From Auanema rhodensis (lineage: Eukaryota; Animalia; Nematoda), in the NCBI GenBank assembly GCA_964057225.1, contig CAXKVF010000094.1, positions 1 through 64,000 of the forward strand: a DNA stretch of 64,000 nt, read 5' to 3'. Below are positions 18,001 through 47,604 of this stretch, in pieces. Positions within the stretch are counted from its first letter, which is position 1. The number at the start of each line of letters is the position of its first letter. The notes beneath the pieces are model-generated. The model searched no databases. It had not been told where the DNA came from and worked only from the letters and a program-made list of their open reading frames with translations. Both the position numbers and the translations under genes were made by a program.

Positions 18001-21000
18001 AATATCAATAAAAATTTGTTTTTAGACTAATATGGACATGGGGAATCTAATTTTGAAAACCGCATCTCTTTATCTTTCACGTGAAGGGAGTTACATACCA
18101 AGTGCACATCACGTGTACATTTAATTAGCATAAATTAAAGTTCACGTAAATTTCAAAGTCATGGTTACCATGAAGCAATATCAATAAAAATTTGTTTTTA
18201 GACTAATATGGACATGGGGAATCTAATTTTGAAAACCGCATCTCTTTATCTTTCACGTGAAGGGAGTTACATACCAAGTGCACATCACGTGTACATTTAA
18301 TTAGCATAAATTAAAGTTCACGTAAATTTCAAAGTCATGGTTACCATGAACCAATATCAATAAAAATTTGTTTTTAGACTAATATGGACATGGGGAATCT
18401 AATTTTGAAAACCGCATCTCTTTATCTTTCACGTGAAGCGAGTTACATACCAAGTGCACATCACGTGTACATTTAATTAGCATAAATTAAAGTTCACGTA
18501 AATTTCAAAGTCATGGTTACCATGCACCAATATCAATAAAAATTTGTTTTTAGACTAATATGGACATGGGGAATCTAATTTTGAAAACCGCATCTCTTTA
18601 TCTTTCACGTGAAGCGAGTTACATACCAAGTGCACATCACGTGTACAATTAATTAGCATAAATTAAAGTTCACGTAAATTTCAAAGTCATGGTTACCATG
18701 AACCAATATCAATAAAAATTTGTTTTTAGACTAATATGGACATGGGGAATCTAATTTTGAAAACCGCATCTCTTTATCTTTCACGTGAAGCGAGTTACAT
18801 ACCAAGTGCACATTACGTGTACATTTAATTAGCATAAATTAAAGTTCACGTAAATTTCAAAGTCATGGTTACCATGAACCAATATCAATACAAATTTGTT
18901 TTTAGACTAATATGGACATGGGGAATCTAATTTTGAAAACCGCATCTCTTTATCTTTCACGTGAAGCGAGTTACATACCAAGTGCACATTACGTGTACAT
19001 TTAATTAGCATAAATTAAAGTTCACGTAAAATTCAAAGTCATGGTTACCATGCACCAATATCAATAAAAATTTGTTTTTAGACTAATATGGACATGGGGA
19101 ATCTAATTTTGAAAACCGCATCTCTTTATCTTTCACGTGAAGCGAGTTACATACCAAGTGCACATCACGTGTACATTTAATTAGCATAAATTAAAGTTCA
19201 CGTAAATTTCAAAGTCATGGTTACCATGCACCAATATCAATAAAAATTTGTTTTTAGACTAATATGGACATGGGGAATCTAATTTTGAAAACCGCATCTC
19301 TTTATCTTTCACGTGAAGGGAGTTACATACCAAGTGCACATCACGTGTACATTTAATTAGCATAAATTAAAGTTCACGTAAATTTCAAAGTCATGGTTAC
19401 CATGAAGCAATATCAATAAAAATTTGTTTTTAGACTAATATGGACATGGGGAATCTAATTTTGAAAACCGCATCTCTTTATCTTTCACGTGAAGGGAGTT
19501 ACATACCAAGTGCACATCACGTGTACATTTAATTAGCATAAATTAAAGTTCACGTAAATTTCAAAGTCATGGTTACCATGAACCAATATCAATAAAAATT
19601 TGTTTTTAGACTAATATGGACATGGGGAATCTAATTTTGAAAACCGCATCTCTTTATCTTTCACGTGAAGCGAGTTACATACCAAGTGCACATCACGTGT
19701 ACATTTAATTAGCATAAATTAAAGTTCACGTAAATTTCAAAGTCATGGTTACCATGCACCAATATCAATAAAAATTTGTTTTTAGACTAATATGGACATG
19801 GGGAATCTAATTTTGAAAACCGCATCTCTTTATCTTTCACGTGAAGCGAGTTACATACCAAGTGCACATCACGTGTACATTTAATTAGCATAAATTAAAG
19901 TTCACGTAAATTTCAAAGTCATGGTTACCATGAACCAATATCAATAAAAATTTGTTTTTAGACTAATATGGACATGGGGAATCTAATTTTGAAAACCGCA
20001 TCTCTTTATCTTTCACGTGAAGCGAGTTACATACCAAGTGCACATCACGTGTACATTTAATTAGCATAAATTAAAGTTCACGTAAATTTCAAAGTCATGG
20101 TTACCATGAACCAATATCAATACAAATTTGTTTTTAGACTAATATGGACATGGGGAATCTAATTTTGAAAACCGCATCTCTTTATCTTTCACGTGAAGCG
20201 AGTTACATACCAAGAGCACATTACGTGTACATTTAATTAGCATAAATTAAAGTTCACGTAAAATTCAAAGTCATGGTTACCATGCACCAATATCAATAAA
20301 AATTTGTTTTTAGACTAATATGGACATGGGGAATCTAATTTTGAAAACCGCATCTCTTTATCTTTCACGTGAAGCGAGTTACATACCAAGTGCACATCAC
20401 GTGTACATTTAATTAGCATAAATTAAAGTTCACGTAAATTTCAAAGTCATGGTTACCATGCACCAATATCAATAAAAATTTGTTTTTAGACTAATATGGA
20501 CATGGGGAATCTAATTTTGAAAACCGCATCTCTTTATCTTTCACGTGAAGCGAGTTACATACCAAGTGCACATCACGTGTACATTTAATTAGCATAAATT
20601 AAAGTTCACGTAAATTTCAAAGTCATGGTTACCATGAACCAATATCAATACAAATTTGTTTTTAGACTAATATGGACATGGGGAATCTAATTTTGAAAAC
20701 CGCATCTCTTTATCTTTCACGTGAAGCGAGTTACATACCAAGTGCACATCACGTGTACATTTAATTAGCATAAATTAAAGTTCACGTAAATTTCAAAGTC
20801 ATGGTTACCATGAAGCAATATCAATAAAAATTTGTTTTTAGACTAATATGGACATGGGGAATCTAATTTTGAAAACCGCATCTCTTTATCTTTCACGTGA
20901 AGCGAGTTACATACCAAGTGCACATCACGTGTACATTTAATTAGCATAAATTAAAGTTCACGTAAATTTCAAAGTCATGGTTACCATGAACCAATATCAA

Positions 21001-24000
21001 TAAAAATTTGTTTTTAGACTAATATGGACATGGGGAATCTAATTTTGAAAACCGCATCTCTTTATCTTTCACGTGAAGCGAGTTACATACCAAGTGCACA
21101 TCACGTGTACATTTAATTAGCATAAATTAAAGTTCACGTAAAATTCAAAGTCATGGTTACCATGAACCAATATCAATAAAAATTTGTTTTTAGACTAATA
21201 TGGACATGGGGAATCTAATTTTGAAAACCGCATCTCTTTATCTTTCACGTGAAGCGAGTTACATACCAAGTGCACATCACGTGTACATTTAATTAGCATA
21301 AATTAAAGTTCACGTAAATTTCAAAGTCATGGTTACCATGCACCAATATCAATAAAAATTTGTTTTTAGACTAATATGGACATGGGGAATCTAATTTTGA
21401 AAACCGCATCTCTTTATCTTTCACGTGAAGCGAGTTACATACCAAGTGCACATCACGTGTACATTTAATTAGCATAAATTAAAGTTCACGTAAAATTCAA
21501 AGTCATGGTTACCATGCACCAATATCAATAAAAATTTGTTTTTAGACTAATATGGACATGGGGAATCTAATTTGGAAAACCGCATCTCTTTATCTTTCAC
21601 GTGAAGCGAGTTACATACCAAGTGCACATCACGTGTACATTTAATCAGCATAAATTAAAGTTCACGTAAATTTCAAAGTCATGGTTACCATGCACCAATA
21701 TCAATAAAAATTTGTTTTTAGACTAATATGGACATGGGGAATCTAATTTTGAAAACCGCATCTCTTTATCTTTCACGTGAAGGGAGTTACATACCAAGTG
21801 CACATCACGTGTACATTTAATTAGCATAAATTAAAGTTCACGTAAATTTCAAAGTCATGGTTACCATGAAGCAATATCAATAAAAATTTGTTTTTAGACT
21901 AATATGGACATGGGGAATCTAATTTTGAAAACCGCATCTCTTTATCTTTCACGTGAAGGGAGTTACATACCAAGTGCACATCACGTGTACATTTAATTAG
22001 CATAAATTAAAGTTCACGTAAATTTCAAAGTCATGGTTACCATGAACCAATATCAATAAAAATTTGTTTTTAGACTAATATGGACATGGGGAATCTAATT
22101 TTGAAAACCGCATCTCTTTATCTTTCACGTGAAGCGAGTTACATACCAAGTGCACATCACGTGTACATTTAATTAGCATAAATTAAAGTTCACGTAAATT
22201 TCAAAGTCATGGTTACCATGCACCAATATCAATAAAAATTTGTTTTTAGACTAATATGGACATGGGGAATCTAATTTTGAAAACCGCATCTCTTTATCTT
22301 TCACGTGAAGCGAGTTACATACCAAGTGCACATCACGTGTACAATTAATTAGCATAAATTAAAGTTCACGTAAATTTCAAAGTCATGGTTACCATGAACC
22401 AATATCAATAAAAATTTGTTTTTAGACTAATATGGACATGGGGAATCTAATTTTGAAAACCGCATCTCTTTATCTTTCACGTGAAGCGAGTTACATACCA
22501 AGTGCACATTACGTGTACATTTAATTAGCATAAATTAAAGTTCACGTAAATTTCAAAGTCATGGTTACCATGAACCAATATCAATACAAATTTGTTTTTA
22601 GACTAATATGGACATGGGGAATCTAATTTTGAAAACCGCATCTCTTTATCTTTCACGTGAAGCGAGTTACATACCAAGTGCACATTACGTGTACATTTAA
22701 TTAGCATAAATTAAAGTTCACGTAAAATTCAAAGTCATGGTTACCATGCACCAATATCAATAAAAATTTGTTTTTAGACTAATATGGACATGGGGAATCT
22801 AATTTTGAAAACCGCATCTCTTTATCTTTCACGTGAAGCGAGTTACATACCAAGTGCACATCACGTGTACATTTAATTAGCATAAATTAAAGTTCACGTA
22901 AATTTCAAAGTCATGGTTACCATGCACCAATATCAATAAAAATTTGTTTTTAGACTAATATGGACATGGGGAATCTAATTTTGAAAACCGCATCTCTTTA
23001 TCTTTCACGTGAAGGGAGTTACATACCAAGTGCACATCACGTGTACATTTAATTAGCATAAATTAAAGTTCACGTAAATTTCAAAGTCATGGTTACCATG
23101 AAGCAATATCAATAAAAATTTGTTTTTAGACTAATATGGACATGGGGAATCTAATTTTGAAAACCGCATCTCTTTATCTTTCACGTGAAGGGAGTTACAT
23201 ACCAAGTGCACATCACGTGTACATTTAATTAGCATAAATTAAAGTTCACGTAAATTTCAAAGTCATGGTTACCATGAACCAATATCAATGAAAATTTGTT
23301 TTTAGACTAATATGGACATGGGGAATCTAATTTTGAAAACCGCATCTCTTTATCTTTCACGTGAAGCGAGTTACATACCAAGTGCACATCACGTGTACAT
23401 TTAATTAGCATAAATTAAAGTTCACGTAAATTTCAAAGTCATGGTTACCATGCACCAATATCAATAAAAATTTGTTTTTAGACTAATATGGACATGGGGA
23501 ATCTAATTTTGAAAACCGCATCTCTTTATCTTTCACGTGAAGCGAGTTACATACCAAGTGCACATTACGTGTACATTTAATTAGCATAAATTAAAGTTCA
23601 CGTAAAATTCAAAGTCATGGTTACCATGCACCAATATCAATAAAAATTTGTTTTTAGACTAATATGGACATGGGGAATCTAATTTTGAAAACCGCATCTC
23701 TTTATCTTTCACGTGAAGCGAGTTACATACCAAGTGCACATCACGTGTACATTTAATTAGCATAAATTAAAGTTCACGTAAATTTCAAAGTCATGGTTAC
23801 CATGAACCAATATCAATAAAAATTTGTTTTTAGACTAATATGGACATGGGGAATCTAATTTTGAAAACCGCATCTCTTTATCTTTCACGTGAAGCGAGTT
23901 ACATACCAAGTGCACATCACGTGTACATTTAATTAGCATAAATTAAAGTTCACGTAAATTTCAAAGTCATGGTTACCATGAACCAATATCAATACAAATT

Positions 24001-27000
24001 TGTTTTTAGACTAATATGGACATGGGGAATCTAATTTTGAAAACCGCATCTCTTTATCTTTCACGTGAAGCGAGTTACATACCAAGAGCACATTACGTGT
24101 ACATTTAATTAGCATAAATTAAAGTTCACGTAAAATTCAAAGTCATGGTTACCATGCACCAATATCAATAAAAATTTGTTTTTAGACTAATATGGACATG
24201 GGGAATCTAATTTTGAAAACCGCATCTCTTTATCTTTCACGTGAAGCGAGTTACATACCAAGTGCACATCACGTGTACATTTAATTAGCATAAATTAAAG
24301 TTCACGTAAATTTCAAAGTCATGGTTACCATGCACCAATATCAATAAAAATTTGTTTTTAGACTAATATGGACATGGGGAATCTAATTTTGAAAACCGCA
24401 TCTCTTTATCTTTCACGTGAAGCGAGTTACATACCAAGTGCACATCACGTGTACATTTAATTAGCATAAATTAAAGTTCACGTAAATTTCAAAGTCATGG
24501 TTACCATGAACCAATATCAATACAAATTTGTTTTTAGACTAATATGGACATGGGGAATCTAATTTTGAAAACCGCATCTCTTTATCTTTCACGTGAAGCG
24601 AGTTACATACCAAGTGCACATCACGTGTACATTTAATTAGCATAAATTAAAGTTCACGTAAATTTCAAAGTCATGGTTACCATGAAGCAATATCAATAAA
24701 AATTTGTTTTTAGACTAATATGGACATGGGGAATCTAATTTTGAAAACCGCATCTCTTTATCTTTCACGTGAAGCGAGTTACATACCAAGTGCACATCAC
24801 GTGTACATTTAATTAGCATAAATTAAAGTTCACGTAAATTTCAAAGTCATGGTTACCATGAACCAATATCAATAAAAATTTGTTTTTAGACTAATATGGA
24901 CATGGGGAATCTAATTTTGAAAACCGCATCTCTTTATCTTTCACGTGAAGCGAGTTACATACCAAGTGCACATCACGTGTACATTTAATTAGCATAAATT
25001 AAAGTTCACGTAAAATTCAAAGTCATGGTTACCATGCACCAATATCAATAAAAATTTGTTTTTAGACTAATATGGACATGGGGAATCTAATTTTGAAAAC
25101 CGCATCTCTTTATCTTTTACGTGAAGCGAGTTACATACCAAGTGCACATCACGTGTACATTTAATTAGCATAAATTAAAGTTCACGTAAATTTCAAAGTC
25201 ATGGTTACCATGAACCAATATCAATAAAAATTTGTTTTTAGACTAATATGGACATGGGGAATCTAATTTTGAAAACCGCATCTCTTTATCTTTCACGTGA
25301 AGCGAGTTACATACCAAGTGCACATCACGTGTACATTTAATCAGCATAAATTAAAGTTCACGTAAATTTCAAAGTCATGGTTACCATGCACCAATATCAA
25401 TAAAAATTTGTTTTTAGACTAATATGGACATGGGAATCTAATTTTGAAAACCGCATCTCTTTATCTTTCACGTGAAGCGAGTTACATACCAAGTGCACAT
25501 CACGTGTACATTTAATTAGCATAAATTAAAGTTCACGTAAATTTCAAAGTCATGGTTACCATGAACCAATATCAATAAAAATTTGTTTTTAGACTAATAT
25601 GGACATGGGGAATCTAATTTTGAAAACCGCATCTCTTTATCTTTCACGTGAAGCGAGTTACATACCAAGTGCACATCACGTGTACATTTAATTAGCATAA
25701 ATTAAAGTTCACGTAAATTTCAAAGTCATGGTTACCATGAAGCAATATCAATAAAAATTTGTTTTTAGACTAATATGGACATGGGGAATCTAATTTTGAA
25801 AACCGCATCTCTTCATCTTTCACGTGAAGCGAGTTACATACCAAGTGCACATCACGTGTACATTTAATTAGCATAAATTAAAGTTCACGTAAATTTCAAA
25901 GTCATGGTTACCATGAACCAATATCAATAAAAATTTGTTTTTAGACTAATATGGACATGGGGAATCTAATTTTGAAAACCGCATCTCTTTATCTTTCACG
26001 TGAAGCGAGTTACATACCAAGTGCACATCACGTGTACATTTAATTAGCATAAATTAAAGTTCACGTAAAATTCAAAGTCATGGTTACCATGAACCAATAT
26101 CAATAAAAATTTGTTTTTAGACTAATATGGACATGGGGAATCTAATTTTGAAAACCGCATCTCTTTATCTTTCACGTGAAGCGAGTTACATACCAAGTGC
26201 ACATCACGTGTACATTTAATTAGCATAAATTAAAGTTCACGTAAATTTCAAAGTCATGGTTACCATGCACCAATATCAATAAAAATTTGTTTTTAGACTA
26301 ATATGGACATGGGGAATCTAATTTTGAAAACCGCATCTCTTTATCTTTCACGTGAAGCGAGTTACATACCAAGTGCACATCACGTGTACATTTAATTAGC
26401 ATAAATTAAAGTTCACGTAAAATTCAAAGTCATGGTTACCATGCACCAATATCAATAAAAATTTGTTTTTAGACTAATATGGACATGGGGAATCTAATTT
26501 TGAAAACCGCATCTCTTTATCTTTTACGTGAAGCGAGTTACATACCAAGTGCACATCACGTGTACATTTAATTAGCATAAATTAAAGTTCACGTAAATTT
26601 CAAAGTCATGGTTACCATGAACCAATATCAATAAAAATTTGTTTTTAGACTAATATGGACATGGGGAATCTAATTTTGAAAACCGCATCTCTTTATCTTT
26701 CACGTGAAGCGAGTTACATACCAAGTGCACATCACGTGTACATTTAATCAGCATAAATTAAAGTTCACGTAAATTTCAAAGTCATGGTTACCATGCACCA
26801 ATATCAATAAAAATTTGTTTTTAGACTAATATGGACATGGGGAATCTAATTTTGAAAACCGCATCTCTTTATCTTTCACGTGAAGCGAGTTACATACCAA
26901 GTGCACATCACGTGTACATTTAATTAGCATAAATTAAAGTTCACGTAAATTTCAAAGTCATGGTTACCATGAACCAATATCAATAAAAATTTGTTTTTAG

Positions 27001-30000
27001 ACTAATATGGACATGGGGAATCTAATTTTGAAAACCGCATCTCTTTATCTTTCACGTGAAGCGAGTTACATACCAAGTGCACATCACGTGTACATTTAAT
27101 TAGCATAAATTAAAGTTCACGTAAATTTCAAAGTCATGGTTACCATGCACCAATATCAATAAAAATTTGTTTTTAGACTAATATGGACATGGGGGATCTA
27201 ATTTTGAAAACCGCATCTCTTTATCTTTCACGTGAAGCGAGTTACATACCAAGTGCACATCACGTGTACATTTAATTAGCATAAATTAAAGTTCACGTAA
27301 ATTTCAAAGTCATGGTTACCATGCACCAATATCAATAAAAATTTGTTTTTAGACTAATATGGACATGGGGAATCTAATTTTGAAAACCGCATCTCTTTAT
27401 CTTTCACGTGAAGCGAGTTACATACCAAGTGCACATCACGTGTACATTTAATTAGCATAAATTAAAGTTCACGTAAATTTCAAAGTCATGGTTACCATGC
27501 ACCAATATCAATAAAAATTTGTTTTTAGACTAATATGGACATGGGGAATCTAATTTTGAAAACCGCATCTCTTTATCTTTCACGTGAAGCGAGTTACATA
27601 CCAAGTGCACATCACGTGTACATTTAATTAGCATAAATTAAAGTTCACGTAAATTTCAAAGTCATGGTTACCATGCACCAATATCAATAAAAATTTGTTT
27701 TTAGACTAATATGGACATGGGGAATCTAATTTTGAAAACCGCATCTCTTTATCTTTCACGTGAAGCGAGTTACATACCAAGTGCACATCACGTGTACATT
27801 TAATTAGCATAAATTAAAGTTCACGTAAATTTCAAAGTCATGGTTACCATGCACCAATATCAATAAAAATTTGTTTTTAGACTAATATGGACATGGGGGA
27901 TCTAATTTTGAAAACCGCATCTCTTTATCTTTCACGTGAAGCGAGTTACATACCAAGTGCACATCACGTGTACATTTAATTAGCATAAATTAAAGTTCAC
28001 GTAAATTTCAAAGTCATGGTTACCATGAACCAATATCAATAAAAATTTGTTTTTAGACTAATATGGACATGGGGAATCTAATTTTGAAAACCGCATCTCT
28101 TTATCTTTCACGTGAAGCGAGTTACATACCAAGTGCACATCACGTGTACATTTAATTAGCATAAATTAAAGTTCACGTAAATTTCAAAGTCATGGTTACC
28201 ATGCACCAATATCAATAAAAATTTGTTTTTAGACTAATATGGACATGGGGAATCTAATTTTGAAAACCGCATCTCTTTATCTTTCACGTGAAGCGAGTTA
28301 CATACCAAGTGCACATCACGTGTACATTTAATTAGCATAAATTAAAGTTCACGTAAATTTCAAAGTCATGGTTACCATGCACCAATATCAATAAAAATTT
28401 GTTTTTAGACTAATATGGACATGGGGAATCTAATTTTGAAAACCGCATCTCTTTATCTTTCACGTGAAGCGAGTTACATACCAAGTGCACATCACGTGTA
28501 CATTTAATTAGCATAAATTAAAGTTCACGTAAATTTCAAAGTCATGGTTACCATGCACCAATATCAATAAAAATTTGTTTTTAGACTAATATGGACATGG
28601 GGAATCTAATTTTGAAAACCGCATCTCTTTATCTTTCACGTGAAGCGAGTTACATACCAAGTGCACATCACGTGTACATTTAATTAGCATAAATTAAAGT
28701 TCACGTAAATTTCAAAGTCATGGTTACCATGAACCAATATCAATAAAAATTTGTTTTTAGACTAATATGGACATGGGGAATCTAATTTTGAAAACCGCAT
28801 CTCTTTATCTTTCACGTGAAGCGAGTTACATACCAAGTGCACATCACGTGTACATTTAATTAGCATAAATTAAAGTTCACGTAAATTTCAAAGTCATGGT
28901 TACCATGCACCAATATCAATAAAAATTTGTTTTTAGACTAATATGGACATGGGGAATCTAATTTTGAAAACCGCATCTCTTTATCTTTCACGTGAAGCGA
29001 GTTACATACCAAGTGCACATCACGTGTACATTTAATTAGCATAAATTAAAGTTCACGTAAATTTCAAAGTCATGGTTACCATGCACCAATATCAATAAAA
29101 ATTTGTTTTTAGACTAATATGGACATGGGGAATCTAATTTTGAAAACCGCATCTCTTTATCTTTCACGTGAAGCGAGTTACATACCAAGTGCACATCACG
29201 TGTACATTTAATTAGCATAAATTAAAGTTCACGTAAATTTCAAAGTCATGGTTACCATGAACCAATATCAATACAAATTTGTTTTTAGACTAATATGGAC
29301 ATGGGGAATCTAATTTTGAAAACCGCATCTCTTTATCTTTCACGTGAAGCGAGTTACATACCAAGTGCACATCACGTGTACATTTAATTAGCATAAATTA
29401 AAGTTCACGTAAATTTCAAAGTCATGGTTACCATGCACCAATATCAATAAAAATTTGTTTTTAGACTAATATGGACATGGGGAATCTAATTTTGAAAACC
29501 GCATCTCTTTATCTTTCACGTGAAGCGAGTTACATACCAAGTGCACATCACGTGTACATTTAATTAGCATAAATTAAAGTTCACGTAAATTTCAAAGTCA
29601 TGGTTACCATGAACCAATATCAATAAAAATTTGTTTTTAGACTAATATGGACATGGGGAATCTAATTTTGAAAACCGCATCTCTTTATCTTTCACGTGAA
29701 GCGAGTTACATACCAAGTGCACATCACGTGTACATTTAATTAGCATAAATTAAAGTTCACGTAAAATTCAAAGTCATGGTTACCATGCACCAATATCAAT
29801 AAAAATTTGTTTTTAGACTAATATGGACATGGGGAATCTAATTTTGAAAACCGCATCTCTTTATCTTTCACGTGAAGCGAGTTACATACCAAGTGCACAT
29901 CACGTGTACATTTAATCAGCATAAATTAAAGTTCACGTAAATTTCAAAGTCATGGTTACCATGCACCAATATCAATAAAAATTTGTTTTTAGACTAATAT

Positions 30001-33000
30001 GGACATGGGGAATCTAATTTTGAAAACCGCATCTCTTTATCTTTCACGTGAAGCGAGTTACATACCAAGTGCACATCACGTGTACATTTAATTAGCATAA
30101 ATTAAAGTTCACGTAAATTTCAAAGTCATGGTTACCATGAACCAATATCAATAAAAATTTGTTTTTAGACTAATATAGACATGGGGAATCTAATTTTGAA
30201 AACCGCATCTCTTTATCTTTCACGTGAAGCGAGTTACATACCAAGTGCACATCACGTGTACATTTAATTAGCATAAATTAAAGTTCACGTAAATTTCAAA
30301 GTCATGGTTACCATGCACCAATATCAATAAAAATTTGTTTTTAGACTAATATGGACATGGGGAATCTAATTTTGAAAACCGCATCTCTTTATCTTTCACG
30401 TGAAGCGAGTTACATACCAAGTGCACATCACGTGTACATTTAATTAGCATAAATTAAAGTTCACGTAAATTTCAAAGTCATGGTTACCATGAACCAATAT
30501 CAATAAAAATTTGTTTTTAGACTAATATGGACATGGGGAATCTAATTTTGAAAACCGCATCTCTTTATCTTTCACGTGAAGCGAGTTACATACCAAGTGC
30601 ACATCACGTGTACATTTAATCAGCATAAATTAAAGTTCACGTAAATTTCAAAGTCATGGTTACCATGCACCAATATCAATAAAAATTTGTTTTTAGACTA
30701 ATATGGACATGGGGAATCTAATTTTGAAAACCGCATCTCTTTATCTTTCACGTGAAGCGAGTTACATACCAAGTGCACATCACGTGTACATTTAATTAGC
30801 ATAAATTAAAGTTCACGTAAATTTCAAAGTCATGGTTACCATGCACCAATATCAATAAAAATTTGTTTTTAGACTAATATGGACATGGGGAATCTAATTT
30901 TGAAAACCGCATCTCTTTATCTTTCACGTGAAGCGAGTTACATACCAAGTGCACATCACGTGTACATTTAATTAGCATAAATTAAAGTTCACGTAAATTT
31001 CAAAGTCATGGTTACCATGCACCAATATCAATAAAAATTCGTTTTTAGACTAATATGGACATGGGGAATCTAATTTTGAAAACCGCATCTCTTTATCTTT
31101 CACGTGAAGCGAGTTACATACCAAGTGCACATCACGTGTACATTTAATTAGCATAAATTAAAGTTCACGTAAATTTCAAAGTCATGGTTACCATGAACCA
31201 ATATCAATAAAAATTTGTTTTTAGACTAATATGGACATGGGGAATCTAATTTTGAAAACCGCATCTCTTTATCTTTCACGTGAAGCGAGTTACATACCAA
31301 GTGCACATCACGTGTACATTTAATTAGCATAAATTAAAGTTCACGTAAATTTCAAAGTCATGGTTACCATGAAGCAATATCAATAAAAATTTGTTTTTAG
31401 ACTAATATGGACATGGGGAATCTAATTTTGAAAACCGCATCTCTTTATCTTTCACGTGAAGCGAGTTACATACCAAGTGCACATCACGTGTACATTTAAT
31501 TAGCATAAATTAAAGTTCACGTAAATTTCAAAGTCATGGTTACCATGAACCAATATCAATAAAAATTTGTTTTTAGACTAATATGGACATGGGGAATCTA
31601 ATTTTGAAAACCGCATCTCTTTATCTTTCACGTGAAGCGAGTTACATACCAAGTGCACATCACGTGTACATTTAATTAGCATAAATTAAAGTTCACGTAA
31701 AATTCAAAGTCATGGTTACCATGCACCAATATCAATAAAAATTTGTTTTTAGACTAATATGGACATGGGGAATCTAATTTTGAAAACCGCATCTCTTTAT
31801 CTTTTACGTGAAGCGAGTTACATACCAAGTGCACATCACGTGTACATTTAATTAGCATAAATTAAAGTTCACGTAAATTTCAAAGTCATGGTTACCATGA
31901 ACCAATATCAATAAAAATTTGTTTTTAGACTAATATGGACATGGGGAATCTAATTGTGAAAACCGCATCTCTTTATCTTTCACGTGAAGCGAGTTACATA
32001 CCAAGTGCACATCACGTGTACATTTAATTAGCATAAATTAAAGTTCACGTAAATTTCAAAGTCATGGTTACCATGAACCAATATCAATAAAAATTTGTTT
32101 TTAGACTAATATGGACATGGGGAATCTAATTTTGAAAACCGCATCTCTTTATCTTTCACGTGAAGCGAGTTACATACCAAGTGCACATCACGTGTACATT
32201 TAATTAGCATAAATTAAAGTTCACGTAAATTTCAAAGTCATGGTTACCATGAACCAATATCAATAAAAATTTGTTTTTAGACTAATATGGACATGGGGAA
32301 TCTAATTGTGAAAACCGCATCTCTTTATCTTTTACGTGAAGCGAGTTACATACCAAGTGCACATCACGTGTACATTTAATTAGCATAAATTAAAGTTCAC
32401 GTAAATTTCAAAGTCATGGTTACCATGAACCAATATCAATAAAAATTTGTTTTTAGACTAATATGGACATGGGGAATCTAATTTTGAAAACCGCATCTCT
32501 TTATCTTTCACGTGAAGCGAGTTACATACCAAGTGCACATCACGTGTACATTTAATCAGCATAAATTAAAGTTCACGTAAATTTCAAAGTCATGGTTACC
32601 ATGCACCAATATCAATAAAAATTTGTTTTTAGACTAATATGGACATGGGGAATCTAATTTTGAAAACCGCATCTCTTTATCTTTCACGTGAAGCGAGTTA
32701 CATACCAAGTGCACATCACGTGTACATTTAATTAGCATAAATTAAAGTTCACGTAAATTTCAAAGTCATGGTTACCATGAACCAATATCAATAAAAATTT
32801 GTTTTTAGACTAATATGGACATGGGGAATCTAATTTTGAAAACCGCATCTCTTTATCTTTCACGTGAAGCGAGTTACATACCAAGTGCACATCACGTGTA
32901 CATTTAATTAGCATAAATTAAAGTTCACGTAAATTTCAAAGTCATGGTTACCATGCACCAATATCAATAAAAATTTGTTTTTAGACTAATATGGACATGG

Positions 33001-35533
33001 GGGATCTAATTTTGAAAACCGCATCTCTTTATCTTTCACGTGAAGCGAGTTACATACCAAGTGCACATCACGTGTACATTTAATTAGCATAAATTAAAGT
33101 TCACGTAAATTTCAAAGTCATGGTTACCATGAACCAATATCAATAAAAATTTGTTTTTAGACTAATATGGACATGGGGAATCTAATTTTGAAAACCGCAT
33201 CTCTTTATCTTTCACGTGAAGCGAGTTACATACCAAGTGCACATCACGTGTACATTTAATTAGCATAAATTAAAGTTCACGTAAATTTCAAAGTCATGGT
33301 TACCATGCACCAATATCAATAAAAATTTGTTTTTAGACTAATATGGACATGGGGAATCTAATTTTGAAAACCGCATCTCTTTATCTTTTACGTGAAGCGA
33401 GTTACATACCAAGTGCACATCACGTGTACATTTAATTAGCATAAATTAAAGTTCACGTAAATTTCAAAGTCATGGTTACCATGAACCAATATCAATAAAA
33501 ATTTGTTTTTAGACTAATATGGACATGGGGAATCTAATTTTGAAAACCGCATCTCTTTATCTTTCACGTGAAGCGAGTTACATACCAAGTGCACATCACG
33601 TGTACATTTAATCAGCATAAATTAAAGTTCACGTAAATTTCAAAGTCATGGTTACCATGCACCAATATCAATAAAAATTTGTTTTTAGACTAATATGGAC
33701 ATGGGGAATCTAATTTTGAAAACCGCATCTCTTTATCTTTCACGTGAAGCGAGTTACATACCAAGTGCACATCACGTGTACATTTAATCAGCATAAATTA
33801 AAGTTCACGTAAATTTCAAAGTCATGGTTACCATGCACCAATATCAATAAAAATTTGTTTTTAGACTAATATGGACATGGGGAATCTAATTTTGAAAACC
33901 GCATCTCTTTATCTTTCACGTGAAGCGAGTTACATACCAAGTGCACATCACGTGTACATTTAATTAGCATAAATTAAAGTTCACGTAAATTTCAAAGTCA
34001 TGGTTACCATGCACCAATATCAATAAAAATTTGTTTTTAGACTAATATGGACATGGGGAATCTAATTTTGAAAACCGCATCTCTTTATCTTTCACGTGAA
34101 GCGAGTTACATACCAAGTGCACATCACGTGTACATTTAATTAGCATAAATTAAAGTTCACGTAAATTTCAAAGTCATGGTTACCATGCACCAATATCAAT
34201 AAAAATTTGTTTTTAGACTAATATGGACATGGGGAATCTAATTTTGAAAACCGCATCTCTTTATCTTTTACGTGAAGCGAGTTACATACCAAGTGCACAT
34301 CACGTGTACATTTAATTAGCATAAATTAAAGTTCACGTAAATTTCAAAGTCATGGTTACCATGAACCAATATCAATAAAAATTTGTTTTTAGACTAATAT
34401 GGACATGGGGAATCTAATTTTGAAAACCGCATCTCTTTATCTTTCACGTGAAGCGAGTTACATACCAAGTGCACATCACGTGTACATTTAATTAGCATAA
34501 ATTAAAGTTCACGTAAATTTCAAAGTCATGGTTACCATGAACCAATATCAATAAAAATTTGTTTTTAGACTAATATGGACATGGGGAATCTAATTTTGAA
34601 AACCGCATCTCTTTATCTTTCACGTGAAGCGAGTTACATACCAAGTGCACATCACGTGTACATTTAATTAGCATAAATTAAAGTTCACGTAAATTTCAAA
34701 GTCATGGTTACCATGCACCAATATCAATAAAAATTTGTTTTTAGACTAATATGGACATGGGGAATCTAATTTTGAAAACCGCATCTCTTTATCTTTCACG
34801 TGAAGCGAGTTACATACCAAGTGCACATCACGTGTACATTTAATTAGCATAAATTAAAGTTCACGTAAATTTCAAAGTCATGGTTACCATGAACCAATAT
34901 CAATAAAAATTTGTTTTTAGACTAATATGGACATGGGGAATCTAATTTTGAAAACCGCATCTCTTTATCTTTCACGTGAAGCGAGTTACATACCAAGTGC
35001 ACATCACGTGTACATTTAATCAGCATAAATTAAAGTTCACGTAAATTTCAAAGTCATGGTTACCATGCACCAATATCAATAAAAATTTGTTTTTAGACTA
35101 ATATGGACATGGGGAATCTAATTTTGAAAACCGCATCTCTTTATCTTTCACGTGAAGCGAGTTACATACCAAGTGCACATCACGTGTACATTTAATTAGC
35201 ATAAATTAAAGTTCACGTAAATTTCAAAGTCATGGTTACCATGCACCAATATCAATAAAAATTTGTTTTTAGACTAATATGGACATGGGGAATCTAATTT
35301 TAAAAACCGCATCTCTTTATCTTTCACGTGAAGCGAGTTACATACCAAGTGCACATCACGTGTACATTTAATTAGCATAAATTAAAGTTCACGTAAATTT
35401 CAAAGTCATGGTTACCATGCACCAATATCAATAAAAATTCGTTTTTAGACTAATATGGACATGGGGAATCTAATTTTGAAAACCGCATCTCTTTATCTTT
35501 CACGTGAAGCGAGTTACATACCAAGTGCACATC
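1..35533. repeat. 176-bp tandem satellite array, left arm (201 complete monomers plus 160 bp of the interrupted monomer)
   Basis: Monomer AGCATAAATTAAAGTTCACG...CACGTGTACATTTAATT recurs at 1, 177, 353, 881 etc. Copies usually differ by only 0-3 substitutions. Three 175-bp monomers (GGGG>GGG near 13644, 16810, 25434) account exactly for the register shift seen at 35198. Confidence 0.99.
35530..35533 (+). other. Target-site duplication CATC (left copy; right copy 47605-47608)
   Basis: The empty monomer reads GTGCA-CATC-ACGTG; here it reads GTGCA-CATC-[element]-CATC-ACGTG. Confidence 0.95.
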
Positions 35534-35551
35534 CGTTCCATTCGGAGACTC

Positions 35552-35557
35552 TATATA
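35552..35557 (+). promoter_or_regulatory. Candidate LTR TATA box
   Basis: TATATA 18 nt into the LTR, just before a GC-richer structured segment. Other TATA-like strings exist in the LTR, so the assignment is uncertain. Confidence 0.35.
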
Positions 35558-35764
35558 TGTAACTGCAGGGTTAGAGCCAGACCGACTAGAGGAATGAGGA
35601 ATGGCACCGCCTTCCCTCATGCCCCTATTCGGGAGTTCGCCCCTTTGCAAGCCCATGGACGGTTTGCATCTAACTTAGTTAATCTTATATATTAGTCTTT
35701 GTCTTGTAAATGTAGTTTACTTTATACTTGTGTTATTGTATTGTAATGATATTGTATTGTGTAT

Positions 35765-35770
35765 AATAAA
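35765..35770 (+). promoter_or_regulatory. Candidate LTR polyadenylation signal (functional copy expected at 47470-47475)
   Basis: AATAAA inside the LTR, in a T/GT-rich context. Confidence 0.55.
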
Positions 35771-35899
35771 CCTATATATTTCCTTATCTTATGTAATCCT
35801 TATGCTCTGTTTCCATACCGCTACACTTATGGAATACTATACGCGTAGTTGAGCAGACTACAATGGTCTGTTCAATATACGTAGGAGCATAATGGAACG

Positions 35900-35912
35900 T
35901 GGAGGTTCCACC
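35900..35912 (+). promoter_or_regulatory. Primer-binding site, complementary to the 3' end of tRNA-Gln
   Basis: TGGAGGTTCCACC directly abuts the 5' LTR and is the reverse complement of ...GGTGGAACCT-CCA, the conserved 3' end of metazoan tRNA-Gln (recalled, not searched). Confidence 0.85.
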
Positions 35913-36875
35913 TCGAACTCATTTTTGTCGCAAAAACTCGCATAAAAAGTCCATATTTTGATATCTAAATTAAAACTTCCTCCACGGTTAGCAACATAAT
36001 GAGGGCGCCAACTTGTATAAGGTGCAGGTACAAGGGATCTCTCTTTTAGAGAGCTAGGACTATATAATTTTGAAATTTCACCCGCTGTCCCCACTCATAA
36101 AACCGTCTGAGTGTCCACCCTTATAATACCGTATCCTGCACCGCTTCTCTTGCATTTTTTTTTGAGGACGTTTGGATCGAAATAGGGGACAATTTCACCA
36201 AACGAAATTTTGATTACATTATTATTTGGCAACGAGGAGTTAGAATGAAATTTTGAAAGCGCACAAAGTTTAATATTTTATTGTGGTCAGGACTAGAGAT
36301 TTGAAAGTTAAATTCAGGCGTAAAAGAGCATGCTAACTAAATATTTTTGCGGGAGCCGTTATTCGGTTTTTATTTTTTTTTGATTGTGAGAATAGACCAC
36401 ACTAGTCCGAAAAATCCTGGCACAAATTTTATTGCCTGTCAGGTCATTTTGGCGAAAGCACATGGGCTACGGATGTTTTCTTCTCCGTAGAATGTGTCAC
36501 CTTCCTCAGCTCATTTTTGTTGCTAACATCATAAGATATTCCCACACACCTACCGTAGTATTCATATTGTAATATTCTATAAATTAGTACAATGGTTTAA
36601 AGAAAAATTGCGTTTTATAAACGAGCTTTGGTCTCAGTCCATTAGTAAAATGAGCAATCTTTTTAAATATTCTCGGAATCTCATTAGCATGCCAAAATCA
36701 TTCCGAAAAAGAATCGCCCACGGCTTTTAATAATCAACGTGCACATGAGCCATTTTCCCAAGGCGCACGCACTCCTTCTTTATTAATAAGCTCGACCAAA
36801 GTTTGTGTTATGGAAAAAAAAAGAGAGAGAGAACAAATGAGTGAAATTAAGTATTTATTATATATGAAACAATTG

Positions 36876-37472
36876 TTAAAAGCCCCATTTAAAATGCAAC
36901 TGTCTCACAAATTCTATAGGCTGTGAGATGGGCTCATTGCTAGGCTCTAAATACTGCGAATACACTGAATCCGCAGAGGTCCTTAGCAATAAGCCCATAG
37001 GAGACTGTTCATAAAACAAATAAATTTTAAACAAAATTTTAGACATATAATCATAAAAATCATGAGGCTTATGCTCATACCAATTCCAAGGGGATGCGAT
37101 TAAATTGGGGTTTTCATACCAATGCGCACACAAATCGGTGAGGCACCATCGCCCAATAGCTGCAACCTCATCCGCTATTTCTTGCATTAGGGAGAAATTC
37201 ACTAATCCCCTCCCCAGATAATGCATTTTTAAATCCTCGATAAACTAAAATTTTTTTTTATTATTATTAATATAACATGTTTCTTTGTTTTAACCAACCA
37301 TCTTAATCATGTCTGGGTGAGGCCTATAAGCTAACACTTCGTCTTGATCATACAAGACGAGGTCAGCGTACAGCTTTCTCAAGACAAAAGTCATTCCCGA
37401 TAGACCTTCATAAGCCATTCTTTGATTTTTTTTTCCTTCTTCAGCTCTACAAATATAAAGAATCTTATGCAT
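36876..37472 (-). CDS. Spliced antisense accessory gene of unknown function (exons 37472-37299 and 37244-36876, 180 aa; a possible further upstream exon 37767-37731 would give 199 aa)
   Basis: A 54-nt AT-rich intron, 37298-37245 (ATG|GTTGGT...AATTTTAG|TTT), joins the 60-aa and 116-aa ORFs in frame (..MIKM|FIEDLKMHYL..). An AATAAA lies 16 nt after the stop on the minus strand (36859-36854). Confidence 0.65.
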
Positions 37473-37832
37473 AAAAAGGGGACATAAAACGACTGAAAAT
37501 CTCTCTCATACTTTCAAGAATTCAATTAGAGTAAAGTATTAAGATTGAGGCTGGAAAGAGCGAAGACCAACAAAATTTATAATTGATGAACATCTGTGAA
37601 AAAGAATAAAGAAAAGAGAATACGGTAGATAGGCGGAGCCAGATCTCAGGCCAAGATTTTAAAACTCTTTCTCATCTAATAACGATTCTCGGCGAAAGAC
37701 GCCACGTCTCAATCTTCAAACTTTTCTTACTTTTCCCTATAACCGACCTGAATTTCTTGTCACTCATTCAACGTCAACATCCCCCATATAACGAAACACT
37801 CGCGGTTTTTCCAAACCAAGAGTGATTCCAAA

Positions 37833-40800
37833 GTGGCACGAAGATACTCTTCGGCCGTCCCTGCTCTATACCCTTCTGAGTCCAGTGACGACATCGCAGT
37901 CGCCAGTCGAACCAGAAGCCGCACTCGACTCCTCAGTGTTCAGATTGAAGAGCCTGAACAAGAGGTAAAACCCAAAGTCGAGAAAACCTTCATTCCTCGA
38001 GAAGGCACGTATTCACCTCCGGACAACACCGAGGAGGACCCTGATTTCTATATTCAGGACTACAATATTCAAACTTCAGCTTCAACTCCAAAGGTACACT
38101 CTTTTAAAAGTAATAAAAAGATTCAAAAAATTCAAAAACCAAAACAAATAACCTCTAATACTTCACCAGCCACCCCCCACCTAAACTTATCAACTTTATC
38201 AGTTAATACTGATAACGATCTTTCATCTTCTTTTGAACTAACTCTAACACCGCAGGCATTTTCCACTCCGATAGAAAACTCACAACTTAATAAAACCTCA
38301 TCTCTCACTATTCGCAAATCACCCTTATCAGTTGTCACTGATAAGCTTGATTCGAAAAAGCTTGATTCTAAAAAGATTAATAAAAGAAAAACTAATACAC
38401 CGCGTAGGCGCTCAACCTCTAATAATCCCGTAGAACCAAATCAGGAAATTACCGAAGTTTTGCCCTTATCACTAACTACTGATAAGTTCAAAAGTAAGAA
38501 ATCTTTAACAGCTCGCTTAATAAAAGTTTTGAATTTGTCTCCAGGGGAGGTAACAACAGAACAAGTTGATAACTCTCTTCACGTATCCTCCAACCCAACC
38601 CTTAATAAGTCAGATAGCGCTATACCCAGCTCAAGCGTTTCAATACATTCGACGCCTCAGGCAACGAGTCGAGTTATCAAACTCCCAGGGAAGCGGTTCT
38701 CCTCAGCCGCCCCTACCATTAGTTATCCAACATCTGGTAACTCGAAAAAGGGAGGTAAGAACTTAACGGCGAGAAGCTCAGGCAGTAAAGGGATTACGTC
38801 ATCTCGCACATACCCTGAGGATATACCAACCATGACGGAGACACCACGTCTTCCGGGAGCTGGTAAATCTACCATTGCGCACGCATTAAGCTCACCTTAT
38901 TGCCCCATATACGACGGAAGTCGTAACTTTAGAGATTTCGTGGCAAAGTTTAATACCTTTTCTAACGCCTTAGGCTTAGTGATGCCCGAAAGACTAACTA
39001 TTTTACCATTACTATTGAAAAATGATAGAGCAGAGGAAGCTTATTTAGAGCTACCTGACAAGGTCAGAACAGCTGGACCTTGGGTTACCCTAATAGAAGA
39101 GTTAACATCCAAGCTGTGTCCCGAATACAATCAAGACCCTGCCCTTATCACACTTCAAAACAGCACTCAAGGCGATTTATCAATTGATGGTTTTGCACAA
39201 ACGTTAAGAAACCTCAGCTTAAATGCTTTCTCTAATAGTGATACTCATAAAGATCACATTCTGAGGTCCACATTTTTGAGAGGCTTGAAAAATACGATAC
39301 GCCCAGGGGTAATTCGAGCAAAACCCAAAACTTTTGCTGAGGCCGTTGATAGTGCTCGCTGGGAGGAATCAATTGCAAACCAAGTAGCAGACCCTCAGGC
39401 GCTATTGGTTAACGCAATTGAAAGAACTTTCCCCCCGCGCAGAAACAATGGTGGGAGAGGTATGGCAAGAGGTTATCAATCTTTTAATAATAAAAATTAT
39501 CAAAATTATAATAATTATAACAATTATCATCCAAACTTTCAAAACAATCAAAATTATCATAAATTTTCAAAAAATCAAAAAGGCTGGAATTTCCAAAACC
39601 CATTTGCTAGGAACCGCAATTTTGGTGACCGCGGTCGAAATTATCAGAATCAAAATCAAAATGGGTATCAAAGAAGCCACAATGCATCACAAAATCAAGA
39701 AATGAGCAATAATAGACAGAGAAATAACAGTACCTTTAGGGGAAATAACAACAATAGAGGCAGAGGTAGAGGCTCAAGAGTCAATAATTTGACTCTGATA
39801 TCTCCTTTGACTTTAGCCGTAGCTTTATCAGTAATCTTATCACTGGTTACAACAGCTGAAGCATACCAGCTATGTACTAAAGCTACTGGAGGAGCCCTTC
39901 TCCGTCCCCCATCTCTCCGAAAATGCTTATTACCACCAATAAAGCATATCTTACGAACAAAAGTTCATCTTTATACAAGGAATCAAACGGCACATGAATG
40001 GGATGCATGGAGATGCTCCAAAGAAATTCATAAAATGTGTATCAGAGACCTTTTGTTCCTTAGAGATACCAATACAACGATAGCGAGAATTGAAAAGATA
40101 CCAGCTGCAGAATGCAGACTGGCAGTGAGAGATAGAAGATGGAATTGGAGTGAAATAAAGAAGATCGACAGCATAACATATGCAACTGACGAGCCTTCCT
40201 TCTCGCCAGGCCGATCTTTTAATAATGAACTATGTGAAGAGAAAGCCAGATTGGTTATCGAAAGAGGGGTTATGACACGGATGCCAGATGAAACTATAAT
40301 CTCCAATTTAATACTAAATACTGAAGGATGCTTAGCGCATCATGGAGAATGTGCATCAGATACCTCAATCATCATATGGGAGAAACAGCCTTATGAATAT
40401 CGATGCAACTATATCGACATGAGTGAATATGATGCGATAATTGGAGACGGCATTATTCTGTTACCAACCACTCAATCAGCCCTTGTAATCGATCAAAAAG
40501 AGATACCGAAGCAAATATCTTCTTGTTTTAAACAGCCAATCTTCCACACCACAACTGGCAATTACATTCTCTTACCACAGTACCCAAATGACACCAATAT
40601 CCATGTTTTAATAGAGAGAGAATATAAGAAACTTCCGGCGAAAAGAGATAAAAGAGCAATTGCGGAATGCACGGTTGAATTAAACAAGGAGTGGATACAA
40701 AAACAGGAAGATTTTGAAACTTTAATATTAAATATTTGTCCTTATCCTTTCTTACGACCGGTGATGAGTAATCCTGGTATTTATCAGATAATACCGCTTA

Positions 40801-46538: not shown

Positions 46539-47227
46539 CAACAAGATAATGCTACGTTATTTAAATTATTGTAACAAAATAACGATGAATTAGAGAAAAA
46601 AAAAATTAATACTAAATAACATTCAAAATAAAAATAGCATTTAATAGAGAATGAGAAAGGAAAAATAAGGCAAATTCTAAACGAGGAGATGTTATGACTA
46701 ATGGTTCCAAGTTACCGTAATCCTATGCGGACTAGAGGACATTTTGACAACCATCCGAGCTCCATGTGCCTCTCCAAATAAGATGAGATAAACACTGGTA
46801 GGCGTATCAACCACAATTTCATCTTAAGTGGTAGTCTCCATTAGTAATCAAGGATTCACTCTGGGAGACATATGGAGACACATTATTAAATCATAATCTC
46901 GGTTCAATTTAGAAATGAGTACTTCTTGAGACCATTAGTCAAAATAATAACATATTCCCATTCATTACTAGCCCCTTATTCTACAATCTCTATTAGGAAA
47001 TGCTTGAATATTAAGATAATTAATTTATGAAATTAATAATATTCTAATTCATCGTCACTTCATATTATATTGAACCCTTCTTATAAATTATTGTAATTTT
47101 GTTTTTATACTAATTAAAACTCTATCATACTATAGTTATTGTGAAGCTAAAACAATTGAACTCTAAAACTCAGTTACATATAAGCCCAAATTTTTGTTTA
47201 AAATATCGCGAGGTCGCGACAATCTTT

Positions 47228-47236
47228 GAAAAAGGG
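47228..47236 (+). promoter_or_regulatory. Polypurine tract
   Basis: GAAAAAGGG lies 2 nt upstream of the 3' LTR. Confidence 0.75.
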
Positions 47237-47238
47237 CA

Positions 47239-47604
47239 CGTTCCATTCGGAGACTCTATATATGTAACTGCAGGGTTAGAGCCAGACCGACTAGAGGAAT
47301 GAGGAATGGCACCGCCTTCCCTCATGCCCCTATTCGGGAGTTCGCCCCTTTGCAAGCCCATGGACGGTTTGCATCTAACTTAGTTAATCTTATATATTAG
47401 TCTTTGTCTTGTAAATGTAGTTTACTTTATACTTGTGTTATTGTATTGTAATGATATTGTATTGTGTATAATAAACCTATATATTTCCTTATCTTATGTA
47501 ATCCTTATGCTCTGTTTCCATACCGCTACACTTATGGAATACTATACGCGTAGTTGAGCAGACTACAATGGTCTGTTCAATATACGTAGGAGCATAATGG
47601 AACG
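47239..47604 (+). repeat. 3' LTR (366 bp)
   Basis: Direct repeat of 35534-35899, preceded by the PPT and followed by the CATC TSD. Confidence 0.97.

What the first reader, a model, noticed from the sequence alone, without database searches (positions are those of the whole stretch)
36876..37767. Hidden multi-exon antisense accessory gene in the 1.9-kb leader
Seen: the two minus-strand ORFs fuse in frame across a canonical 54-nt GT-AG intron. Upstream, a perfect TTTTCAG acceptor (37499-37493) and an AAAA|GTAAGA donor (37730) join in the correct phase to a short exon starting at ATG 37767, which is immediately preceded by an in-frame TGA. This gives MSDKKFRSVIGKIVLCPLFMHKILYICR...LHFKWGF (199 aa), with an AATAAA just after the stop. 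Inference: introns can persist in a retroelement when they are antisense to the genomic RNA, so this looks like a real accessory gene, conceptually like HTLV HBZ. It could be an anti-silencing, targeting or regulatory factor. I recognise no family for this W/Y-rich, probably helical protein.
Basis: partly seen in the sequence, partly recalled or inferred. Interest (0 to 1): 0.85.

Follow-up and report, generated by a model that had tools for sequence, protein, structure and literature searches.

The report
Spliced antisense gene in nematode retroelement
A recently inserted virus-like jumping gene, likely of a roundworm, carries a small backwards gene in its leader whose 54-base intron is cut out in public sequencing data and whose protein is conserved; it likely makes a 162-residue helper protein of no recognised family that may help the element escape host silencing.

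Summary
The antisense gene is real, but probably shorter than proposed. It lies in the leader of an intact gag-env-pro-pol Ty3/gypsy element (identical 366-bp LTRs, tRNA-Gln primer site) inserted in a 176-bp satellite. The 54-nt intron is skipped in contigs of 2 of 4 public runs, and a third supports it (one study, strand not shown). Sister-copy differences in the last exon are 12 synonymous to 4 replacement. A 58%-identical homologue spans that exon from its first residue to the stop. The proposed first exon and 238-nt intron are not supported as coding: no run shows that joint, 3 of 4 runs read through the donor, and sister copies carry single-base deletions and only replacement changes upstream of ATG 37418. 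The likely product is 40+122 = 162 aa, acidic, aromatic-rich and predicted helical, with no Pfam, PDB or fold match. Function is untested; my best guess is a protein-binding adaptor against host silencing (about 0.35). Antisense extra genes are known in plant retrotransposons and HTLV, so this is a new variant. The original paper on these nematode elements could not be read.

The parts
37299..37418 (-). First coding exon of the antisense gene (ATG 37418, 40 codons); start inferred
   Evidence: A at -3 and G at +4 after an A-rich stretch; the 1 sister-copy difference in it is synonymous; covered by spliced contigs of X1 (in part) and X2
37245..37298 (-). 54-nt phase-0 GT..AG intron, 15% G+C, with two in-frame stops
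   Evidence: skipped (ends CT..AC on +) in X1 and X2, and loose end of X3 fits the far side in 8 of 9 letters
36876..37244 (-). Last coding exon (122 codons plus stop)
   Evidence: 12 synonymous / 4 replacement differences; homologue P0003, 58% identical, colinear to the stop
36854..36859 (-). AATAAA, likely poly(A) signal, followed by a T-rich stretch
   Evidence: the 3' end itself is not shown by contigs
37419..37492 (-).
   Evidence: 0 synonymous / 4 replacement differences and a 1-nt deletion in X2; one contig, depth 5.4
37493..37730 (-).
   Evidence: joint in 0 of 4 runs; donor crossed unspliced in 3 of 4; acceptor crossed unspliced in X2, the only run that covers it
37731..37767 (-).
   Evidence: 1-nt deletion in X1, X2 and X4; its one substitution is a replacement
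35534..35899 (+). 5' LTR, 366 bp, identical to the 3' LTR; ends CG..CG with a 6-nt terminal inverted repeat
35900..35911 (+). Primer binding site for tRNA-Gln
   Evidence: its reverse complement equals the Gln_UUG_CUG 12-mer in supplementary file 1 of PMC13524379
37752..46538 (+). Single 2928-codon frame: S/T/K/P-rich N-terminal part, gag, class III (gB/Monjiviricetes-type) env, protease, RT, RNase H, integrase; first ATG only at 38832
37775..37836 (+). Segment shared with other element families in the same runs; holds near-cognate codons and a hairpin; likely non-AUG start region of the long frame
47228..47236 (+). Polypurine tract before the 3' LTR
   Evidence: sequence
47239..47604 (+). 3' LTR; 4-bp target duplication at 35530-35533 and 47605-47608
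1..35533 (.). 176-bp satellite array, left of the insertion (continues 47605-64000)

Best explanation
The element carries in its leader, on the strand opposite gag-env-pol, a conserved gene whose 54-nt intron is skipped in public contigs; it is likely read from its own antisense mRNA into a 162-residue protein, which likely acts in trans as a protein-binding adaptor that keeps the element from being silenced. Shown: the two exons, the skipped intron with CT..AC ends on the + strand, purifying selection and one 58%-identical homologue. Inferred: antisense transcription starts inside the element upstream of 37418, probably near or beyond 37850. The intron survives replication because it is backwards in the genomic RNA and so is not spliced from it (established retroelement logic). 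Translation starts at ATG 37418 and the transcript ends after the AATAAA at 36859. Guessed from anatomy: the protein is acidic, soluble, rich in conserved aromatic residues and has a conserved C-x4-C-x-H patch, which fits a small adaptor that binds a host protein better than an RNA- or DNA-binding or membrane protein. Odds: real protein-coding gene 0.93; 162-aa two-exon form 0.75; counter-silencing adaptor role about 0.35-0.4.
For: Splicing: joint 37244/37299 in X1 and X2, supporting loose end in X3, X4 does not cover the place. Selection: 12 of 16 listed differences in the last exon are synonymous against 20-30% expected (p = 3e-6 to 3e-4; dN/dS about 0.08-0.15), the same pattern as in the long ORF (9 of 11 synonymous). 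Homologue: P0003, E 7e-38, the only hit among 1.84 billion representatives. Its three extra N-terminal residues M-F-Q would be encoded by ATG TTY CAR, which fits a nematode-type acceptor at the same place and phase (DNA not seen). Chance: 1 of 400 shuffles. Anatomy: pI 4.9 and 5.2 for the two exons, best 19-residue hydropathy 0.9, 13 K/R against 21 D/E; 2 of 2 Cys, 7 of 9 Tyr, 6 of 8 Phe, 3 of 5 Trp kept in P0003. Context: identical LTRs and an unbroken polyprotein frame, so the gene rides in a recently active element. PMC7264820 proposes accessory-protein roles for antisense ORFs of plant elements (main text read).
Against: No result addresses function. All four runs come from one study, are contigs of depth about 4-5 at the gene, cannot show strand, and are only guessed to be RNA; no DNA run was available to exclude an intron-less DNA copy. 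The genomic context of P0003 is unknown, so it could be a host gene or the same organism's second element family. The start at 37418 rests partly on one contig (X2). In the window's own copy the frame is open from ATG 37472 (180 aa) and, if intron 1 is spliced, from 37767 (199 aa). Eight ATGs lie upstream of 37418 on the minus strand up to 37850, so an unspliced 5' end would translate poorly; some 5' processing not seen here is likely. Antisense RNA across the leader would also form double-stranded RNA with the genomic RNA, which should promote silencing rather than prevent it.
Confidence: 0.38

Rival explanations
1. Latency or self-restraint gene, as HBZ is for HTLV-1 (recalled): the antisense RNA overlaps the start of the polyprotein frame head to head and, with its protein, damps sense expression so the element persists quietly.
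For: The spliced X2 contig runs unbroken to 37848, past the start of the long frame at about 37775. No run gave a contig that retains the 54-nt intron, which hints that antisense mRNA outnumbers genomic RNA there (contigs drop rare forms). PMC7264820 names dsRNA-mediated control as a role of antisense transcripts.
Against: Selection acts on the amino-acid sequence, so RNA alone does not explain it; no bZIP or other Pfam match; strand and levels not shown.
Confidence: 0.22
2. Rev/CERV-like factor that exports or licenses the unspliced genomic RNA.
For: The nematode element Cer1 needs an element-encoded protein from a spliced mRNA, CERV, with essential cysteines, for genomic RNA export (PMC10309623, abstract and passages). 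Both cysteines here are conserved.
Against: The protein is acidic with no basic patch. The + strand of the leader has 0 TTTCAG and 0 GTAAG sites and no sense joint was seen in 4 runs, so there is little splicing to bypass. CERV is 517 aa and comes from spliced Cer1 mRNA that shares sequence with GAG.
Confidence: 0.17
3. Targeting or particle factor: it steers integration into the satellite or helps assemble the enveloped particle.
For: The copy sits in a homogeneous 176-bp array; the element has env.
Against: One insertion only; loose ends behind the LTR in X3 and X4 show a different flank (table 7); no membrane segment, unlike the FAST-like sORF2 of Drosophila mdg1 elements (PMC13486581, passages; hydropathy).
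Confidence: 0.13
4. One reading: three coding exons, 199 aa from ATG 37767.
For: Good donor and acceptor in the right phase. One X4 contig of another family places sequence like 37772+ next to a 15-nt word found at 37457-37471 (table 7), a hint that an upstream stretch can be absent, by splicing or by deletion. Contigs drop minor forms.
Against: Joint in 0 of 4 runs; donor crossed unspliced in 3 of 4; 1-nt deletions in exon 1 (3 runs) and upstream exon 2 (1 run); 5 of 5 substitutions upstream of 37418 in the proposed exons are replacements; 4 of 20 donor-like sites give such an exon anyway.
Confidence: 0.12
5. Passenger: a captured host gene or chance ORF with no role for the element.
For: Context of the one homologue unknown; 13 of the 16 exon differences cluster in 37067-37212, so they may be one recombined tract.
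Against: dN/dS about 0.1 between copies, conserved stop and likely intron position at 58% identity, no annotated host homologue in three protein searches.
Confidence: 0.07

Closest known systems
Nematode GAG-ENV-POL Ty3/gypsy elements (NERVs, Sacco et al. 2022, doi 10.1099/jgv.0.001739; Nematoda errantiviruses in PMC13524379)
   Same: env between gag and pol, gB-type class III env, tRNA-Gln primer site (8 of the 30 Chromadorea rows seen, of 36); nearest named polyprotein from Auanema sp. JU1783, 44-48% identical over gag C-terminus, env and protease.
   Different: PMC13524379 has no mention of 'antisense'. Of Sacco et al. I saw only the citation and one sentence in PMC13524379; I recall that its abstract mentions an extra small hypothetical ORF in some NERVs, and could not check whether that is this gene.
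Antisense additional ORFs of plant Ty3/gypsy elements (Grande gene23, RIRE2, Retand, PvRetro13; PMC7264820, PMC4408406)
   Same: Antisense ORF inside an LTR element, conserved among copies, no cellular homologue; gene23 has its own promoter.
   Different: Those lie mostly between pol and the 3' LTR (extra ORFs upstream of gag are also reported in Tat elements) and may carry Tr28, PMD or SMC domains; the review reports no spliced case and asks for a search for antisense spliced transcripts. Here: 5' leader, intron, animal host, no domain match.
HBZ of HTLV-1 (details recalled; antisense promoter in the 3' LTR stated in PMC7264820)
   Same: Spliced antisense gene of a retro-transcribing element.
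   Different: HBZ is driven from the 3' LTR and has a bZIP domain; this gene lies over 9 kb from the 3' LTR and is acidic with no bZIP match.
CERV of C. elegans Cer1 (PMC10309623)
   Same: Element-encoded accessory protein from a spliced mRNA in a nematode Ty3/gypsy element; conserved cysteines.
   Different: CERV is 517 aa, shares a leucine zipper with GAG and has a shown export function; the paper has no mention of 'antisense'. Sequence comparison not done.

Membership tests
Nematode GAG-ENV-POL Ty3/gypsy elements (NERV type) - the host element | gag, env, protease, RT, RNase H, integrase in that order in one frame between LTRs | tested here: met
Nematode GAG-ENV-POL Ty3/gypsy elements (NERV type) - the host element | class III (gB / mononegaviral-type) env | tested here: met
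   PF24664 E 5.9e-15, above cut-off; PF00606 E 7.1e-9, below cut-off
Nematode GAG-ENV-POL Ty3/gypsy elements (NERV type) - the host element | chromadorean nematode host | tested here: inconclusive
   nearest named relative from Auanema, nematode-type splice sites, an unchecked note calling this genome a nematode; host not shown directly
Nematode GAG-ENV-POL Ty3/gypsy elements (NERV type) - the host element | RT groups with described NERV clades | not tested
   no reference RT sequences were at hand; the 61 loci are generic Ty3/gypsy at 34-49% identity
NERV 'small hypothetical protein' (recalled from the abstract of Sacco et al. 2022) | same position, strand and sequence family as this gene | not testable with these tools
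   paper not in the library; search found no paper with 4 of 5 terms
HBZ-type antisense proteins of deltaretroviruses | spliced transcript antisense to the genomic RNA | tested here: met
   CT..AC intron skipped in 2 of 4 runs; strand inferred from the intron ends
HBZ-type antisense proteins of deltaretroviruses | position next to the 3' LTR | tested here: not met
   gene lies between the primer site and gag
HBZ-type antisense proteins of deltaretroviruses | bZIP domain | tested here: not met
   no Pfam family for either exon or for P0003 at E up to 1-10; acidic
Plant antisense aORF-3R (Grande gene23, Retand, RIRE2) | antisense ORF conserved among copies | tested here: met
Plant antisense aORF-3R (Grande gene23, Retand, RIRE2) | located between pol and the 3' LTR | tested here: not met
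   5' leader
Plant antisense aORF-3R (Grande gene23, Retand, RIRE2) | own internal promoter, nuclear product | not testable with these tools
   contigs show no start site or location
CERV (Cer1) | shares N-terminal sequence with GAG through splicing | tested here: not met
   gene is on the strand opposite gag; no sense joint in 4 runs
CERV (Cer1) | sequence or fold homology to the H, M or G domain | not tested
   no CERV sequence at hand; models here are low confidence

The most novel reading that the evidence does not exclude
A new family of retroelement accessory proteins: an envelope-bearing nematode element runs a head-to-head pair of units from one short region at the leader/gag boundary, a spliced antisense gene for a small, possibly zinc-binding counter-silencing adaptor and a polyprotein that starts at a non-AUG codon 350 codons ahead of its first ATG. 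That would give these simple-looking elements the layout of a complex retrovirus.
Probability: 0.3. Interest if true: 0.8.

Novelty: new variant of a known kind. Interest (0 to 1): 0.6.

Why it matters
Envelope-bearing nematode retroelements have been catalogued by gag, env and pol only (PMC13524379). A spliced backwards gene is missed by ORF finders, so a whole layer of accessory genes may be unannotated. This one has splice evidence, selection and a diverged homologue, and matches no known family, so it is a concrete, small, testable candidate for how such elements stay active in a host with strong small-RNA and chromatin defences. If its function is ordinary, it remains a well-supported new example of an antisense extra gene.

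Tried and rejected
Family and structure searches gave nothing usable: Pfam for both exons and for P0003, no family; PDB by sequence, best E 0.16 among 8 weak rows; AlphaFold2 of the last exon alone, mean pLDDT 53.4, and with P0003, 50.8, both mostly helical; fold searches with these weak models, best Z 7.1 and 4.6 to generic helical hairpins, no Foldseek E below 1.9. Absence of a match does not show a new fold. The 40-residue first exon was not part of any model. A two-copy complex prediction returned no answer. Word-indexed protein search with the exon found no candidate; with the two-sequence alignment it returned only P0003 (1 of 23 candidates); longer and shorter proteins were not searched with that tool. 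No relative in IMG/VR or in phage records. The metagenome scan with RT gave 61 generic Ty3/gypsy loci, which I did not examine further. No whole genome was held, so other copies could not be counted or compared, and feature-based look-alikes in the ESM Atlas remain untested. No RNA holder was listed on record. No cover was seen at 36465-36863 in any of the 4 runs; this is not evidence. No SL1-like loose end at 37492 (table 7); contigs clip short tips, so trans-splicing stays open. Indels all lie upstream of ATG 37418 (3 of 3 places), but that alone is not significant (p = 0.11). Rfam: 0 matches in 35400-39000. The + strand frame that mirrors third positions also shows 10 of 16 synonymous changes but is not open across the exon, so it was rejected. 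Literature searches for a prior description (listings only, except the papers named) found none; subscription papers, including Sacco et al. 2022 and Steinbauerova et al. 2011, and bioRxiv supplements were not seen and may bear on novelty.

Full report
Setting. The window is a 176-bp satellite array broken once by a 12.07-kb LTR element: identical 366-bp LTRs at 35534-35899 and 47239-47604, a 4-bp target duplication, and a primer site directly behind the 5' LTR. The primer site is the exact complement of the tRNA-Gln 12-mer tabulated in PMC13524379. One frame of 2928 codons (37752-46538) encodes a weak Ty3 capsid match, a class III fusion protein (PF24664, E 5.9e-15), protease, RT, RNase H and integrase in that order. 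PMC13524379 reports this GAG-ENV-POL order for nematodes, bryozoans and flatworms and credits Sacco et al. 2022 for the nematode case (passages). The only protein with E below 1e-10 over the gag-env region, among 7983 scored candidates, is from Auanema sp. JU1783. The host is therefore likely a nematode.

The observation. The question is which parts are used.

The 54-nt intron is supported. Four public runs (one study, contigs only, RNA status guessed by the tool) were laid on the element. Contigs of X1 and X2 skip exactly 37245-37298, with CT..AC ends on the + strand, which is GT..AG on the minus strand. X3 stops at the joint with 9 loose letters, 8 of which match the far side. X4 does not cover the place. 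No listed contig retains the intron. Contigs cannot show strand, and no DNA run was available as a control.

The last exon is under selection as protein. The contigs come from a slightly different copy. Of 16 listed differences in the last exon (the X1 contig has 18; 2 were not listed), 12 are synonymous, against 20-30% expected; dN/dS is about 0.08-0.15, p = 3e-6 to 3e-4. The 11 best-supported differences that I scored in the long frame give 9 synonymous. A full HMMER scan of 1.84 billion representatives found one homologue, P0003 (E 7e-38, 58% identical), which aligns from the first residue of the exon to the stop. Its three extra N-terminal residues fit an acceptor of the TTYCAG type at the same place and phase; this is read from the codons, the DNA was not seen, and its context is unknown (one Logan contig of 1035 nt). 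One of 400 shuffled leaders gave a one-intron ORF this long.

The first exon is not supported as coding. No run shows the 37731/37492 joint. X1, X2 and X4 cross the donor unspliced, and X2 runs in one piece from 37018, across the spliced 54-nt joint, to 37848. The same three runs lack one base inside the proposed first exon, and X2 lacks another 17 nt upstream of ATG 37418. All 4 substitutions in the 24 codons between the acceptor and ATG 37418 are replacements, against 13 synonymous of 17 downstream (Fisher p = 0.012). ATG 37418 has A at -3 and G at +4 behind an A-rich stretch. Four of 20 donor-like sites upstream offer an in-phase ATG exon, so finding one is unremarkable. The likely product is 40 + 122 = 162 residues. 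Against this: contigs drop minor forms, sense genomic RNA also covers the region, the upstream deletion in exon 2 rests on one contig, and the window's own copy is open from 37472 and, if spliced, from 37767. Eight upstream ATGs argue that the mature mRNA is processed at its 5' end in some way, and one X4 contig of another family places sequence like 37772+ next to a 15-nt word found at 37457-37471. An untranslated upstream exon or trans-splicing at the TTTTCAG is thus quite possible.

The protein. Acidic (pI about 5), no membrane segment, no basic patch; conserved aromatic residues and a conserved C-x4-C-x-H patch; mostly helical in two low-confidence models. No Pfam, PDB or fold match was found.

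How it likely works. The genomic RNA is read from the 5' LTR on the + strand; the intron is backwards in it and is copied through reverse transcription. A separate minus-strand mRNA starts inside the element, is spliced, ends after the AATAAA at 36859 and yields the small protein, which acts in trans. I commit to a counter-silencing adaptor role at about 0.35-0.4, by analogy with small accessory proteins of complex retroviruses (recalled) and because the composition argues against nucleic-acid binding or a membrane role. Rivals are a latency role (0.22), genomic RNA export as by CERV (0.17), targeting or particle assembly (0.13) and a passenger gene (0.07). None of these was tested directly.

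Comparison and novelty. The host element meets the tested layout features of nematode GAG-ENV-POL elements; its RT placement was not tested. The gene works like the antisense extra ORFs of plant elements (PMC7264820, main text read; PMC4408406, passages) and like HBZ in being antisense and spliced, but fails their position and domain tests, so it is not filed with them. It differs from CERV (PMC10309623, abstract and passages) in strand and size. PMC5408684 and PMC13486581 (passages) describe other extra ORFs, none antisense and spliced in what I saw. Eight searches found no description of such a gene in a nematode element. Sacco et al. 2022 was not readable; I recall that it mentions a small hypothetical ORF in some elements, which could be this gene. 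Unchecked notes of this scan report intron-bearing antisense genes in LTR elements of other genomes, one between the primer site and gag; these are leads, not support.

A second oddity at the same spot: the + strand has no ATG for 1244 nt around the start of the long frame, the frame is conserved in another family far upstream of its first ATG, and a hairpin follows three near-cognate codons. The polyprotein likely has a non-AUG start, head to head with the antisense unit.

Verdict: real spliced antisense gene (0.93), likely 162 aa rather than 199 (0.75), function untested; new variant of a known kind; interest 0.6.

Noticed in passing
window 37588-38831 (+): No ATG in any frame for 1244 nt (next longest gap in the element 524 nt; 4 of 5000 codon shuffles give zero). 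The long frame is open for 360 codons before its first ATG. Loose ends of another family keep about 8 of 15 residues of this frame at codons 24-38 (read by eye). Near-cognate codons at 37779, 37788 and 37791 precede a hairpin starting at 37793 (z -2.96, stretch picked after the fact). This fits a non-AUG start of an extended Gag with leaky scanning to 38832.
   Followed up: partly
window 35534-35539, 47599-47604: LTRs begin and end with CG inside a 6-nt inverted repeat instead of the usual TG..CA; 4-bp target duplication.
   Followed up: no
window 35885-35918 and 37772-37836: At least one other element family in runs X1-X4 shares the primer site region and the start of the long frame; one 1600-nt X4 contig has 1327 letters between them against 1855 here.
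   Followed up: partly
window 37067-37212: 13 of the 16 listed exon differences cluster here while the rest of the element differs by about 1%, which looks like a recombined tract from a more diverged sister copy.
   Followed up: no
window 44369-47238: Run X2 has deeper contigs (about 18-23) over the 3' part of pol and the 3' untranslated region than elsewhere; a truncated copy or a subgenomic RNA are both possible, and contig depth is a poor measure.
   Followed up: no
window 43106-43984 (-): A 292-codon stop-free frame antisense to the protease/RT region, no Pfam match; likely a shadow of the sense frame.
   Followed up: partly
window 1-35533 and 47605-64000: Very homogeneous 176-bp satellite (97-100% identity, about 295 copies in the window) with this single insertion.
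   Followed up: no
long ORF residues about 940-1330 (window about 40570-41740): A long, partly Thr-rich insert splits the env ectodomain and is shared in part with the Auanema relative.
   Followed up: no
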